Source: Escherichia coli
Lineage (GTDB): Bacteria > Pseudomonadota > Gammaproteobacteria > Enterobacterales > Enterobacteriaceae
DNA length: 64,000 nt
NCBI RefSeq assembly: GCF_002854065.1
Contig: NZ_CP024147.1
Direction: 5' to 3' (one strand)
Shown here: piece by piece, positions 7,014 through 35,725 of the stretch
How positions within the stretch are numbered: position 1 is the stretch's first letter
Layout of the letters: every line of letters begins with the position of its first letter
The notes under the pieces: generated by a model
Seen by the model: the letters and a program-made list of their open reading frames with translations, nothing else
Database searches by the model: none
Told to the model about the DNA's origin: nothing
Made by a program: the position numbers and the translations under genes

Positions 7014-7199
7014 ATTTCTCTGAGATGTTCGCAAGCGGGCCAGTCCCCTGAGCCGATATTTCATACCACAAGAATGTGGCGCTCCGCGGTTGGTGAGCAT
7101 GCTCGGTCCGTCCGAGAAGCCTTAAAACTGCGACGACACATTCACCTTGAACCAAGGGTTCAAGGGTTACAGCCTGCGGCGGCATCTCGGAGATTCCCT
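7014..7199 (+). ncRNA. ssrS: 6S RNA (RNA polymerase sigma70 holoenzyme regulator)
   Basis: Sequence ATTTCTCTGAGATGTTCGCAAGCGGGCCAGTCCCCTGAGCCGATATTTCATACCACAAGAATGTGGCGCTCCGCGG... matches the remembered E. coli 6S RNA; lies between zapA and fau as in the zapA-ssrS-fau operon. Confidence 0.9.
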
Positions 7200-7271
7200 T
7201 CTTATCTGGCACCAGCCATGACGCAACTACCAGAACTCCCACTGACATTATCCCGACAAGAAATCCGCAAA

Positions 7272-7820
7272 ATGATTCGGCAACGTCGTCGTACGTTAAC
7301 GCCGGAACAACAGCAGGAAATGGGTCAACAAGCCGCTACCCGGATGATGACTTATCCCCCGGTGGTGATGGCACATACGGTCGCTGTATTCCTCTCTTTT
7401 GATGGCGAACTCGACACCCAGCCACTCATAGAACAACTCTGGCGCGCCGGTAAGCGCGTATATCTTCCAGTTTTGCATCCCTTTAGTGCCGGTAATTTGC
7501 TGTTCCTGAATTACCATCCGCAAAGCGAACTGGTGATGAACAGGTTGAAGATCCATGAGCCAAAATTGGATGTGCGTGACGTGCTACCCCTTTCCCGATT
7601 AGACGTGTTGATCACACCGCTGGTCGCCTTTGATGAGTACGGTCAGCGCCTGGGAATGGGCGGTGGTTTTTATGATCGGACCTTACAAAACTGGCAGCAC
7701 TATAAAATGCAACCGGTGGGTTATGCGCATGATTGTCAGTTGGTGGAAAAACTCCCCGTTGAAGAGTGGGATATCCCACTGCCTGCGGTGGTTACACCGT
7801 CGAAAATCTGGGAGTGGTGA
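7272..7820 (+). CDS. fau: 5-formyltetrahydrofolate cyclo-ligase
   Basis: Track ORF 7074..7820 overlaps ssrS; trimmed to MIRQRRRTLTPEQQQEMGQQAATRMM... (182 aa) as in ygfA/fau. Confidence 0.88.
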   Translation: MIRQRRRTLTPEQQQEMGQQAATRMMTYPPVVMAHTVAVFLSFDGELDTQPLIEQLWRAGKRVYLPVLHPFSAGNLLFLNYHPQSELVMNRLKIHEPKLDVRDVLPLSRLDVLITPLVAFDEYGQRLGMGGGFYDRTLQNWQHYKMQPVGYAHDCQLVEKLPVEEWDIPLPAVVTPSKIWEW

Positions 7821-7874
7821 GGGCGACACACCTGCATCGCCCTGATTGACATCGTTGATTCTTTGACCTAATTT

Positions 7875-8020
7875 AGTGAGTAAGGGTAAGGGAGGATGAC
7901 TCCTCCCCTGAGACTGACTGTTAATAAGCTGGGAAACTTATGAGTAACAGTACAATCAGTATGATGACAAGTCGCATCATAACCCTTCTCCTTCAAGCCC
8001 TCGCTTCGGTGAGGGCTTTA
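7875..8020 (+). ncRNA. sibC: SibC antitoxin sRNA (type I toxin-antitoxin; approximate ends)
   Basis: Antisense to the ibsC ORF; contains Sib-like GGGAGG repeats (aagggtaagggaggatgactcctcccctga) and a 3' hairpin agccctcgcttcggtgagggct at 7996-8017; located between fau and serA. Confidence 0.6.
7921..7980 (-). CDS. ibsC: type I toxin IbsC (19-aa hydrophobic peptide)
   Basis: Minus-strand ORF atgatgcgacttgtcatcatactgattgtactgttactcataagtttcccagcttattaa = MMRLVIILIVLLLISFPAY; not in the supplied ORF track (too short). Confidence 0.8.
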   Translation of the reverse strand: MMRLVIILIVLLLISFPAY

Positions 8021-8208
8021 CCGTTACAGCCCTGTGCTGTCCCGCCATCGTAAATCCCCATTAAATAAACACAACGCATTGATCTGACTTTGATTTATTT
8101 TCTGGAGCAGACTCGCAAAGTAGAATGCGCAACGCGGCAACGGTGTGGAGAAGGGATAAAAAAACGGGCAAGTCAGTGACCTGCCCGTTGATTTTCAGAG
8201 AAGGGGAA

Positions 8209-9441
8209 TTAGTACAGCAGACGGGCGCGAATGGTACCCGGAATAGCTTTCATTGCCTGCAGCGCTTTTTCGGCAACGTCTTCGTCGGCTTCAATATCAA
8301 TAACCACATAACCCATCTGGGCGGAAGTTTGTAGATATTGCGCGGCGATGTTGACGCCCTGCTCGGCGAAGATTTTGTTCAGCGCAGTTAGCACGCCCGG
8401 ACGGTTTTCGTGGATGTGCATCAGACGACGCCCACCGTGCAGTGGCAGCGAGACTTCCGGGAAGTTCACCGCAGAGAGCGTTGAGCCATTGTCAGAATAC
8501 TTGATCAATTTACCCGCAACTTCCAGGCCAATATTCTCCTGCGCTTCCTGAGTCGAACCGCCAATGTGTGGCGTCAGAAGGACGTTGTCGAATTCACACA
8601 GCGGAGAGGTAAATGGATCGCTATTGGTCGCCGGTTCCGTCGGGAATACGTCGATTGCCGCCCCCGCCAGATGTTTGCTCGCCAGCGCATCACACAGCGC
8701 CGGAATATCCACCACAGTACCGCGCGAAGCATTAATCAGCAGCGAGCCGGGCTTCATTAGTGAAATTTCTTTCGCGCCCATCATATTTTTGGTGGACGGA
8801 TTCTCTGGTACATGCAGACTCACCACATCGCTCATATTCAGCAGGTCAGAAAGATGCTGTACCTGAGTGGCGTTGCCCAGCGGCAGTTTATTTTCAATAT
8901 CATAAAAGTAAACATACATTCCCAGCGATTCAGCCAGAATGCCCAATTGCGTACCAATATGACCGTAGCCGATGATACCCAGCTTTTTGCCGCGCGCTTC
9001 AAAAGACCCCGCCGCCAGTTTGTTCCACACGCCACGGTGCGCTTTAGCATTGGCTTCCGGCACGCCGCGCAATAGCAACAGCAGTTCGCCAATCACCAGC
9101 TCCGCAACAGAGCGCGTATTTGAGAACGGTGCGTTAAATACCGGGATCCCGCGCTTTGCCGCCGCATCCAGATCAACCTGGTTTGTTCCGATACAGAAAC
9201 AGCCAATAGCGACCAGCTTTTCTGCGGCGTTGATCACGTCTTCAGTCAGATGGGTACGGGATCGCAGGCCGATGAAGTGGGCATCGCGGATGGATTCTTT
9301 TAATTGTTCATCATCCAGCGCGCCTTTGTGAAATTCGATGTTGGTGTAACCAGCTGCACGAAGGCTTTCCAGCGCCTTTTGGTGCACTCCTTCTACCAGC
9401 AGAAACTTAATCTTGTCTTTCTCCAGCGATACCTTTGCCAT
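8209..9441 (-). CDS. serA: D-3-phosphoglycerate dehydrogenase
   Basis: 410-aa ORF MAKVSLEKDKIKFLLVEGVHQKALESL...; NAD-binding GIIGYGHIGTQ motif. Confidence 0.95.
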   Translation of the reverse strand: MAKVSLEKDKIKFLLVEGVHQKALESLRAAGYTNIEFHKGALDDEQLKESIRDAHFIGLRSRTHLTEDVINAAEKLVAIGCFCIGTNQVDLDAAAKRGIPVFNAPFSNTRSVAELVIGELLLLLRGVPEANAKAHRGVWNKLAAGSFEARGKKLGIIGYGHIGTQLGILAESLGMYVYFYDIENKLPLGNATQVQHLSDLLNMSDVVSLHVPENPSTKNMMGAKEISLMKPGSLLINASRGTVVDIPALCDALASKHLAGAAIDVFPTEPATNSDPFTSPLCEFDNVLLTPHIGGSTQEAQENIGLEVAGKLIKYSDNGSTLSAVNFPEVSLPLHGGRRLMHIHENRPGVLTALNKIFAEQGVNIAAQYLQTSAQMGYVVIDIEADEDVAEKALQAMKAIPGTIRARLLY

Positions 9442-21029: not shown

Positions 21030-21140
21030 TTGTCATGCCGGATGCGGCGTGAACGCCTTATCCGGCCTACAAAAACCTGCGAATTCAATATATTGCAGGA
21101 TACGTGTAGGCCTGATAAGCGTAGCGCATCAGGCAATTTT
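21030..21140. repeat. REP/BIME palindromic repeats in mscS-fbaA intergenic region
   Basis: gccggatgcggcgtgaacgccttatccggcctac ... gtaggcctgataagcgtagcgcatcaggc; typical REP consensus. Confidence 0.85.

Positions 21141-35604: not shown

Positions 35605-35725
<121 letters not shown>

What the first reader, a model, noticed from the sequence alone, without database searches (positions are those of the whole stretch)
7875..8020. ibsC/sibC type I toxin-antitoxin between fau and serA, with a Ser to Pro variant in the toxin
A 19-codon minus-strand ORF encodes MMRLVIILIVLLLISFPAY, which matches IbsC as I recall it except for Pro in place of Ser at residue 17. It lies inside a region with Sib-like GGGAGG repeats and a 3' hairpin on the plus strand. 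The ORF is too short to appear in the supplied track.
Basis: partly seen in the sequence, partly recalled or inferred. Interest (0 to 1): 0.35.

Follow-up and report, generated by a model that had tools for sequence, protein, structure and literature searches.

The report
Known ibsC/sibC toxin-antitoxin, common Pro17 allele
This is the well-known E. coli ibsC/sibC small-toxin/antisense-RNA pair between fau and serA, and its proline "variant" is the commonest and probably ancestral form, with laboratory strain K-12 carrying the unusual serine.

Summary
Window 7921-7980 (minus strand) encodes MMRLVIILIVLLLISFPAY at exactly the K-12 ibsC position, inside a full-length Rfam Sib RNA match (137.6 bits, gathering 56), between fau and serA. 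K-12 IbsC has Ser at residue 17.

The implied significance does not hold. RefSeq already annotates this exact peptide as IbsC (WP_071525914.1, for example in Nissle 1917). A 36-nt probe for the Pro allele matches 2,789 of 5,426 complete E. coli genomes (51%), against 2,165 (40%) for the K-12 Ser allele. Pro is the family consensus (33 of 61 distinct Ibs ORFs from other genomes; Ser 2 of 61). It is also the state at the fau-serA locus in E. albertii, two other Escherichia lineages and Pseudocitrobacter. K-12's Ser is therefore probably derived.

One point is worth adding. All three bases of codon 17 differ, and on the plus strand they are SibC G49-C50-U51. Han et al. 2010 changed this loop trinucleotide of target-recognition domain 1 (TRD1) to retarget SibC. 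Because the pair is cis-encoded, its complementarity is preserved automatically. TRD2, which covers the ribosome-binding site, is identical to K-12.

Verdict: already known, ordinary, low interest.

The parts
7846..7851 (+). sibC promoter -35 hexamer TTGACA
   Evidence: Read from the sequence. TTGAC is invariant in all 8 aligned Sib modules. It forms the start of the Rfam SIB_RNA model match.
7869..7874 (+). sibC promoter -10 hexamer TAATTT (17-nt spacer; 7 nt upstream of +1)
   Evidence: Sequence and spacing. Its position relative to the K-12 annotated sibC 5' end was transferred by alignment. It matches only 3 of 6 of TATAAT, which is why the consensus scan missed it.
7882..8022 (+). sibC antitoxin RNA (141 nt)
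   Evidence: The K-12 sibC b4446 coordinates were transferred through a gap-free alignment with an offset of 6230. Rfam RF00113 scores 137.6 bits against a gathering score of 56, over model positions 1-147 of 147. It differs from K-12 SibC at 5 of 141 positions, all in predicted apical loops.
7890..7907 (+). SibC 5' hairpin (P2): GGGAGGA / loop UGAC / UCCUCCC.
   Evidence: MFE fold. The loop bases 7898-7899 are GA here and TG in K-12.
7927..7949 (+). SibC target-recognition domain 1 (TRD1, SibC +46..+68), which pairs inside the ibsC ORF
   Evidence: Domain limits come from Han et al. 2010 (PMC2943612) and were mapped.
7930..7932 (+). Variable trinucleotide: UGG here and GCU (G49-C50-U51) in K-12. 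It is the antisense of ibsC codon 17 (CCA Pro against AGC Ser).
   Evidence: Han et al. changed exactly G49CU51 to UGC to retarget SibC TRD1 to ibsD. It lies in the predicted apical loop, positions 48-55.
7921..7980 (-). ibsC toxin ORF: 19 codons plus stop, MMRLVIILIVLLLISFPAY
   Evidence: Translation. Pfam PF13956 Ibs_toxin scores 47.3 bits against a cutoff of 27, over profile positions 1-19 of 19. It has the same coordinates as K-12 b4665. RefSeq annotates the identical ORF as ibsC, WP_071525914.1.
7980..7996 (+). SibC target-recognition domain 2 (TRD2, +99..+115), identical to K-12. Its core CUCCUUC (7988-7994) is antisense to the ibsC Shine-Dalgarno sequence.
   Evidence: Han et al. 2010, mapped.
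7988..7993 (-). ibsC Shine-Dalgarno sequence AAGGAG, 7 nt upstream of the ATG
   Evidence: Sequence. With ibsC +1 placed at 8040, these are mRNA positions 48-53, with G at 50, 51 and 53 as reported by Han et al..
7995..8018 (+). SibC intrinsic terminator hairpin (G+C-rich core 7997-8016) followed by UUU.
   Evidence: MFE fold. The sequence is identical to K-12. It is conserved in all 8 aligned modules.
7882..8040 (-). ibsC mRNA (159 nt, inferred extent)
   Evidence: This is an inference. Han et al. report ibsC G50/G51/G53 pairing with SibC C110/C109/C107 and a 159-nt transcript, which places +1 at 8040. The G/G/A/G pattern at mRNA positions 50-53 fits that placement. The 3' end was predicted by Han et al., not mapped.
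8047..8074 (-). Putative ibsC promoter: -35 TTGTGT (8074-8069), 16-nt spacer, -10 TACGAT (8052-8047)
   Evidence: This is inferred from its position relative to the inferred +1. The hexamers are identical in K-12. Han et al. state that conserved promoter elements lie upstream of the mapped 5' end, but their figure could not be read here.

Best explanation
This is the chromosomal type I toxin-antitoxin module ibsC/sibC of E. coli, in its most common natural allele. The minus strand gives a roughly 159-nt mRNA for IbsC, a 19-residue hydrophobic peptide that depolarises the inner membrane when overproduced. The plus strand gives the 141-nt SibC RNA, transcribed across the whole ORF and ribosome-binding site, so it is perfectly complementary to the mRNA. 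SibC starts pairing through two independent single-stranded elements. TRD1 is the apical loop of a hairpin and pairs with ORF codons 11 to 18. TRD2 pairs with the Shine-Dalgarno region. Pairing then spreads, and the mRNA is cleaved by RNase III and degraded, so the toxin is not made. The three bases that differ from K-12 are the TRD1 loop trinucleotide (UGG here, GCU in K-12), read on the other strand as codon 17 (Pro here, Ser in K-12). Because toxin and antitoxin are encoded on opposite strands of the same DNA, the change is self-compensating. TRD2, both promoters, the SD and the terminator are unchanged, and the predicted SibC fold is the same. The module is therefore expected to work exactly as in K-12. 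Shown here: identity, position, family membership, allele frequencies and the mapping of the change onto TRD1. Taken from the literature: toxicity, repression, and the roles of TRD1 and TRD2. Inferred: that the Pro17 peptide is toxic and is repressed normally.
For: The Rfam SIB_RNA match is full length at 137.6 bits against a gathering score of 56. Pfam Ibs_toxin matches full length at 47.3 bits against 27. Gene order is zapA-ssrS-fau-[ibsC/sibC]-serA-rpiA, as in K-12 and as in genomes 100% identical to the window where RefSeq annotates ibsC. The spacer is 98% identical to K-12, and only 5 of 141 SibC positions differ, all in predicted apical loops. The MFE structure and energy are the same in both (-55.3 kcal/mol). 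The variant trinucleotide is SibC +49..+51, the bases Han et al. mutated to switch TRD1 specificity. TRD2 is identical, and Han et al. found either TRD alone sufficient for repression. The Pro allele is in 2,789 of 5,426 complete E. coli genomes and the Ser allele in 2,165. Pro17 occurs in 33 of 61 distinct Ibs ORFs across Enterobacteriaceae and at the orthologous locus in other Escherichia species. K-12 IbsB and IbsE also have Pro17, and IbsE is annotated as a toxic peptide. The mechanism comes from Han et al. 2010 (PMC2943612) and the review PMC8309996.
Against: No expression, toxicity or repression data exist for this allele in anything I could read. A review of the Mok et al. 2010 mutagenesis says the C-terminal residues of IbsC are needed for toxicity, so an effect of residue 17 on potency cannot be excluded from sequence alone. 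I could not read the primary mutagenesis paper. The YUNR motif that Han et al. noted in the K-12 ibsC target loop (UUCA) is not present in the Pro allele loop (UUCCCA). It is also absent from K-12 ibsA, ibsB and ibsE by my reading of the sequences, so it is unlikely to be essential.
Confidence: 0.93

Rival explanations
1. The Pro/UGG allele is a functionally distinct specificity class. The change in the TRD1 loop trinucleotide re-addresses SibC so that it no longer recognises Ser-type (GCU/AGC) or Gly-type (UCC/GGA) ibsC mRNAs through TRD1. This diversification would be selected, for example to keep the two tandem modules found in a third of E. coli genomes separately controlled.
For: Han et al. 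showed that swapping exactly this trinucleotide retargets TRD1, and that the TRDs lie in the most variable parts of the Sib RNAs. Three alleles of the trinucleotide (UGG, GCU, UCC) segregate at this one locus. In two-module genomes the two copies differ at TRD1 (UGG against UCC) and by one base in TRD2. Across 61 Ibs ORFs, variation is concentrated at positions unpaired in SibC: 0.91 against 0.39 bits, permutation p=5e-5.
Against: The window carries a single module, so nothing at this locus needs to be discriminated. TRD2 is identical to K-12, and either TRD alone suffices for repression, so cross-repression of a Ser-type ibsC should persist. High variability at codon 17 is equally explained by relaxed constraint in an RNA loop and at a tolerant peptide position. 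No test for selection was possible, and the permutation test ignores phylogenetic relatedness.
Confidence: 0.12
2. Proline at residue 17 weakens or abolishes the toxin, making this a decaying toxin-antitoxin module.
For: Proline can disrupt helices, and the C-terminal part of IbsC (residues 6-19) is reported as required for toxicity (review of Mok et al. 2010).
Against: Pro17 is the family consensus (33 of 61). It is present in K-12 IbsE, which is annotated as a toxic peptide, and in IbsB. It is kept with an intact ORF, SD and antisense RNA in at least 51% of E. coli genomes and at the orthologous locus in other genera. It is two residues from the C-terminus, beyond the hydrophobic core. A truly decayed allele looks different: strain 33E has a stop at codon 3 and is annotated as a pseudogene.
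Confidence: 0.04
3. The short ORF is a chance reading frame and the region is only a repeated intergenic element without a coding function.
For: A 19-codon ORF is on its own not statistically significant. The region belongs to an intergenic repeat family.
Against: There is a full-length match to the Pfam Ibs_toxin profile. AAGGAG sits at a suitable distance from the ATG. The ORF keeps its 19-codon length in 61 distinct sequences from many genera, with substitutions that are mostly conservative hydrophobic changes. Toxicity of IbsC in K-12 is established experimentally.
Confidence: 0.01

Closest known systems
ibsC/sibC of E. coli K-12 MG1655 (b4665/b4446)
   Same: It has the same chromosomal position (fau-serA spacer) and the same coordinates after alignment. 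136 of 141 SibC bases and 18 of 19 IbsC residues are identical. The sibC promoter hexamers, TRD2, SD and terminator are identical, and so is the predicted SibC fold.
   Different: The TRD1 loop trinucleotide is UGG rather than GCU, giving Pro17 rather than Ser17. The P2 loop is UGAC rather than UUGC. There are a few substitutions in the ibsC 5' UTR and the spacer.
RefSeq WP_071525914.1 'type I toxin-antitoxin system toxin IbsC' (e.g. E. coli Nissle 1917, strain ECNB21-M121)
   Same: The peptide is identical, and in Nissle 1917 the 60-nt ORF is identical too. ECNB21-M121 is 100% identical over the 601 nt tested.
   Different: Nothing differs at the protein level. Nissle differs at a few SibC loop and stem bases outside the ORF.
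fau-proximal module of the tandem ibs/sib pair found in about 34% of E. coli genomes (e.g. ET479, O157:H7, GTDB representative SCPM-O-B-8794)
   Same: The TRD1 trinucleotide (UGG, Pro17, CCA) and TRD2 are the same. In SCPM-O-B-8794 the peptide is identical to the window's.
   Different: Those genomes carry a second module 392 bp downstream with Gly17 (GGA) and a one-base TRD2 change. The window has one module, whose P2 loop and position-30 base match the second copy rather than the first.
K-12 paralogues ibsA/sibA, ibsB/sibB, ibsD/sibD, ibsE/sibE
   Same: All have the same architecture of a 18-19-residue MM...SF.AY peptide fully overlapped by an antisense Sib RNA. IbsB and IbsE also have Pro17.
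   Different: They sit at different loci (yegL-mdtA and yqiK-hldE). They have Lys rather than Arg at residue 3, and different TRD1 and TRD2 sequences.

Membership tests
Sib antitoxin RNA (Rfam RF00113 SIB_RNA) | Covariance-model score at or above the curated gathering score, over the full model | tested here: met
   137.6 bits against a gathering score of 56, E=2.9e-28, model positions 1-147 of 147, window 7846-7996 plus strand.
Sib antitoxin RNA (Rfam RF00113 SIB_RNA) | Encoded antisense to, and completely overlapping, an ibs ORF and its ribosome-binding site | tested here: met
   sibC at 7882-8022 (+) contains the ibsC ORF at 7921-7980 (-) and the SD at 7988-7993 (-).
Sib antitoxin RNA (Rfam RF00113 SIB_RNA) | Two target-recognition domains (TRD1 hairpin loop, TRD2 single-stranded junction before the terminator) complementary to the cognate ibs mRNA | tested here: met
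   TRD1 (7927-7949) lies in a predicted apical loop and stem. TRD2 (7980-7996) is predicted to be partly single-stranded and is identical to K-12. Complementarity to its own ibsC follows from cis-encoding.
Sib antitoxin RNA (Rfam RF00113 SIB_RNA) | Expressed as an abundant RNA of about 140 nt that represses the cognate ibs | not testable with these tools
   The promoter hexamers and terminator are identical to K-12, where the RNA ends are annotated. No expression data exist for this strain.
Ibs toxin (Pfam PF13956 Ibs_toxin) | Profile-HMM score above the curated cutoff over the full length | tested here: met
   47.3 bits against a cutoff of 27, E=1.8e-12, profile positions 1-19 of 19. The query was the peptide plus one upstream in-frame residue, added to reach the tool's 20-residue minimum. 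NCBIfam has no matching model.
Ibs toxin (Pfam PF13956 Ibs_toxin) | 18-19-residue hydrophobic peptide starting MM, with a Shine-Dalgarno sequence | tested here: met
   MMRLVIILIVLLLISFPAY, with AAGGAG 7 nt upstream of the ATG.
Ibs toxin (Pfam PF13956 Ibs_toxin) | Toxic (membrane depolarisation, growth arrest) when overproduced | not testable with these tools
   This is known for K-12 IbsC. It has not been tested for the Pro17 peptide in anything I could read.
ibsC orthologue specifically (as opposed to ibsA/B/D/E) | Located between fau (ygfA) and serA, downstream of ssrS | tested here: met
   zapA, ssrS (7014-7197), fau (7218-7820), ibsC, and serA (8209-9441 minus) are in the same order as in K-12.
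Type I toxin-antitoxin system | Antisense RNA antitoxin blocks toxin mRNA translation or stability by base-pairing | not testable with these tools
   This is inferred from perfect antisense overlap and from K-12 experiments (Han et al. 2010).

The most novel reading that the evidence does not exclude
The SibC TRD1 loop trinucleotide, which is also IbsC codon 17, acts as a rapidly evolving address code. Three forms (UGG/Pro, GCU/Ser, UCC/Gly) segregate at this single E. coli locus, and selection for orthogonal toxin-antitoxin recognition among Sib paralogues and tandem copies drives the peptide's most conspicuous variable residue. The amino-acid change would then be a by-product of RNA-level specificity evolution. 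The well-studied K-12 Ser allele would be a derived outlier, so K-12 results on specificity may not represent the species.
Probability: 0.15. Interest if true: 0.3.

Novelty: already known. Interest (0 to 1): 0.08.

Why it matters
It matters little. The locus, its mechanism, its family and even this exact peptide are already in the literature and in RefSeq. There are two small useful points. First, the 'variant' is an artefact of taking K-12 as the standard, because K-12's Ser17 is the minority and probably derived state. Second, the amino-acid difference is the coding-strand shadow of a change in the experimentally defined specificity loop of the antitoxin RNA. Anyone using K-12 SibC/ibsC as a model for target discrimination, or as a cloning or antimicrobial-peptide scaffold, should know that about half of E. 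coli genomes carry a different TRD1 loop and Pro17.

Tried and rejected
- **Promoter scan.** The consensus scan found no sigma-70 site.
- **NCBIfam scan.** It returned no family, so membership rests on Pfam and on RefSeq annotation of identical loci.
- **Primary papers not held.** I tried to read Fozo et al. 2008 (PMC2597788) and Mok et al. 2010 (doi and PMC3009890), and neither is held. Statements on toxicity requirements therefore come second-hand from a review and from Huang et al. 2020.
- **Gene conversion from a K-12 paralogue.** I considered this as the source of the three-base change. None of sibA, sibB, sibD or sibE has either trinucleotide in the same context, so it is unsupported.
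- **Inactivating mutation.** I considered and rejected this on conservation grounds.
- **75-nt exact-match counts.** These underestimate allele frequency, because unrelated neighbouring SNPs split the classes. The 36-nt probes centred on the codon replaced them.
- **Chance pattern hits.** About a quarter of the cross-species pattern hits were chance matches in unrelated phyla (Lysinibacillus, Bacteroidales and others) with no Ibs-like ORF. I filtered them out.

Full report
**1. What is in the sequence**

The window is E. coli chromosome. A 601-nt query around the finding matches 5,425 of 5,426 complete E. coli genomes, five of them at 100%. The local gene order is zapA, ssrS (6S RNA, 7014-7197, Rfam 139.8 bits), fau (7218-7820), a 388-bp spacer, then serA (8209-9441, minus strand) and rpiA.

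On the minus strand, 7921-7980 reads ATG ATG CGA ... CCA GCT TAT TAA, which translates to MMRLVIILIVLLLISFPAY.

Rfam's SIB_RNA model (RF00113) matches 7846-7996 on the plus strand at 137.6 bits (gathering 56, E=2.9e-28) over the whole model. The peptide matches Pfam PF13956 Ibs_toxin at 47.3 bits (cutoff 27) over the whole 19-position profile. For that scan I added one upstream in-frame residue to reach the tool's length minimum.

**2. Comparison with the reference**

In K-12 MG1655, sibC (b4446) and ibsC (b4665) lie between fau and serA. The spacer aligns to the window without gaps at 98% identity. This places sibC at window 7882-8022 and ibsC at exactly 7921-7980.

Neither is met.

**3. Anatomy**

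Plus strand:
- The -35 hexamer TTGACA is at 7846-7851. After a 17-nt spacer, the -10 hexamer TAATTT is at 7869-7874, and SibC +1 is at 7882.
- The 5' hairpin is GGGAGGA/UCCUCCC (7890-7907).
- A long hairpin follows whose apical loop is SibC 48-55, then a hairpin formed by AUGAUGA/UCAUCAU.
- A single-stranded CUCCUUC (7988-7994) comes next, then the terminator hairpin (7995-8018) followed by UUU.

Minus strand:
- Han et al. 2010 report that ibsC G50, G51 and G53 pair with SibC C110, C109 and C107, and that the mRNA is 159 nt.
- That places ibsC +1 at window 8040. With this numbering, mRNA positions 48-53 read AAGGAG, with G at 50, 51 and 53 as they describe. This supports the placement.
- Upstream lie TTGTGT, 16 nt, then TACGAT (8074-8047). 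These hexamers are identical in K-12. They are inferred promoter elements.

**4. What the 'variant' really is**

Only five of 141 SibC positions differ from K-12. Two are in the loop of the 5' hairpin (7898-7899). The other three are consecutive bases at 7930-7932, TGG here and GCT in K-12. Both RNAs give the same predicted structure at the same energy of -55.3 kcal/mol.

The three consecutive bases are SibC G49-C50-U51. Han et al. defined target-recognition domain 1 (TRD1) as SibC +46..+68 and TRD2 as +99..+115. They showed that either domain alone suffices to repress ibsC. They also showed that changing 'G49CU51 to UGC' lets SibC act on ibsD through TRD1. On the other strand the same three bases are codon 17 of ibsC.

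The amino-acid difference is therefore the coding-strand image of a change in the antitoxin's experimentally defined specificity loop. Because toxin and antitoxin share the same DNA, the change keeps the pair perfectly complementary. TRD2, which covers the Shine-Dalgarno sequence, is identical to K-12.

**5. How unusual is Pro17?**

It is not unusual.

- **K-12 paralogues.** Residue 17 is Gln (IbsA), Pro (IbsB), Ser (IbsC), Ala (IbsD) and Pro (IbsE).
- **RefSeq.** The window's exact peptide is already named IbsC (WP_071525914.1), both in a genome 100% identical over the 601 nt tested and in Nissle 1917, whose 60-nt ORF is identical.
- **E. coli allele frequencies.** I used 36-nt probes centred on the codon, so every 28-nt seed word must include it. 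The Pro (CCA) allele is in 2,789 of 5,426 complete genomes (51%), the K-12 Ser (AGC) allele in 2,165 (40%), and a Gly (GGA) allele in 1,841 (34%).
- **Two-module genomes.** The Gly count closely matches the number of genomes that carry two tandem ibs/sib modules 392 bp apart in this spacer. About 1,868 genomes have two matching places. In the two such genomes I examined (ET479 and SCPM-O-B-8794), the fau-proximal copy is Pro17 and the serA-proximal copy is Gly17.
- **Other species.** A scan of one genome per bacterial species used a pattern at the other end of the ORF, so it was unbiased for codon 17. It gave 61 distinct 19-residue Ibs ORFs, with residue 17 as Pro 33, Ala 10, Gln 7, His 6, Ser 2, and Gly, Thr and Asn 1 each.
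- **Orthologous locus.** At the fau-serA position, codon 17 is CCG (Pro) in E. albertii. It is CCA (Pro) in two other Escherichia lineages (MOD1-EC7003 and E1V33) and in Pseudocitrobacter faecalis and P. vendiensis. It is GCA (Ala) in one Citrobacter.

The most economical reading is that Pro/CCA is ancestral at this locus and K-12's Ser is derived.

**6. Mechanism**

The published K-12 work shows the following. IbsC is a membrane-depolarising toxic peptide. SibC represses it and triggers mRNA degradation. Initial contacts are made at TRD1 and TRD2.

Shown here: every sequence element involved is present and, apart from loop bases, identical to K-12. Inferred: the Pro17 peptide is toxic and is normally repressed.

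Pro17 occurs in K-12 IbsE, which is annotated as a toxic peptide, and in most family members. It is retained with intact signals in half of all E. coli genomes. This argues against loss of function. A truly decayed allele looks different: strain 33E has a stop at codon 3 and is annotated as a pseudogene.

**7. A side observation**

Across the 61 ORFs, nucleotides that are unpaired in the predicted SibC fold are more variable than paired ones. Mean entropy is 0.91 against 0.39 bits, and the difference holds at each codon position. A permutation test stratified by codon position gives p=5e-5. The most variable residues (4, 17, 16, 13, 3) all fall in loops or bulges.

This fits the remark by Han et al. 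that the TRDs lie in variable regions. It cannot separate selection for specificity from relaxed constraint. The test also ignores phylogenetic relatedness and uses a single predicted fold.

**8. Comparison with what is known, and novelty**

The family, the mechanism, the locus, copy-number variation and this exact peptide are all on record. For copy number, Fozo et al. 2010 report seven Ibs genes in O157:H7 Sakai. All sequence-testable membership criteria for Sib RNA, Ibs toxin and the ibsC orthologue are met. Only expression and toxicity could not be tested.

The finding is therefore already known. The only residual idea of any novelty is that the three forms of the TRD1 trinucleotide seen within the species reflect selection on antitoxin addressing. 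I give this low probability and modest interest.

**9. Verdict**

The identification is correct. The 'variant' framing is reversed by the population and cross-species data. Interest is low.

Noticed in passing
L003 1221-1280 and 1613-1672 (E. coli ET479); also L015 45-462: About a third of complete E. coli genomes (roughly 1,868 with two matching places; 1,841 with the Gly allele) carry two tandem ibs/sib modules 392 bp apart between fau and serA. In the two examined, the copies are Pro17 then Gly17. The window has a single module.
   Followed up: partly
window 7882-8022 compared with L003 copies 1 and 2: The window's SibC is a mosaic. Its TRD1 trinucleotide and TRD2 match the fau-proximal copy of two-module strains, while its P2 loop (GA) and base 30 (A) match the serA-proximal copy. 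This hints at gene conversion or unequal crossover between tandem copies.
   Followed up: no
window 7927-7936 (ibsC codons 16-18): The CCA/AGC difference can also be written as two compensating 2-nt indels, GTTT[CC]CA--GCTT against GTTT--CA[GC]GCTT. That would be contraction of a C-run plus duplication of GC, rather than three substitutions. No intermediate allele was looked for.
   Followed up: no
L096 620-679 (E. coli strain 33E): This ibsC allele has CGA to TGA at codon 3 and is annotated as a pseudogene with an internal stop. The rest of the module is intact, apart from a few substitutions in the 5' hairpin and one in TRD2.
   Followed up: no
window 7074-7820: A 248-codon ATG ORF runs through the 3' half of the 6S RNA gene (ssrS, 7014-7197) into fau. 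RefSeq starts fau at 7218 (200 aa) and K-12 at the equivalent of 7272 (182 aa). The long ORF is an over-extension, not a gene.
   Followed up: partly
window 7821-7842: The inverted repeat GGGCGA...TCGCCC sits immediately after the fau stop codon. It is also present upstream of the second module in two-module strains, so it belongs to the duplicated unit. It may be a fau terminator.
   Followed up: no
61 Ibs ORFs from L006-L093: ORF nucleotides that are unpaired in the predicted SibC fold are about twice as variable as paired ones (0.91 against 0.39 bits, stratified permutation p=5e-5). The most variable peptide residues (3, 4, 13, 16, 17) all map to SibC loops or bulges.
   Followed up: partly
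window 21071-21113, 35633-35675, 61480-61550, 49487-49559: Other Rfam hits in the window are two ES036 (CssrF) matches, one naRNA4 (CssrE) match, and one tRNA on the minus strand. The tRNA's anticodon loop reads GAA (Phe) in the cmscan alignment.
   Followed up: no
L017, L088, L089 (Lysinibacillus); L045, L064: The search pattern also hit Bacillales genomes at ORFs beginning MMKKVIIAFL.... These are not Ibs-like, having no 19-codon ORF and no Sib context. They probably mark the N-terminus of an unrelated conserved gene.
   Followed up: no
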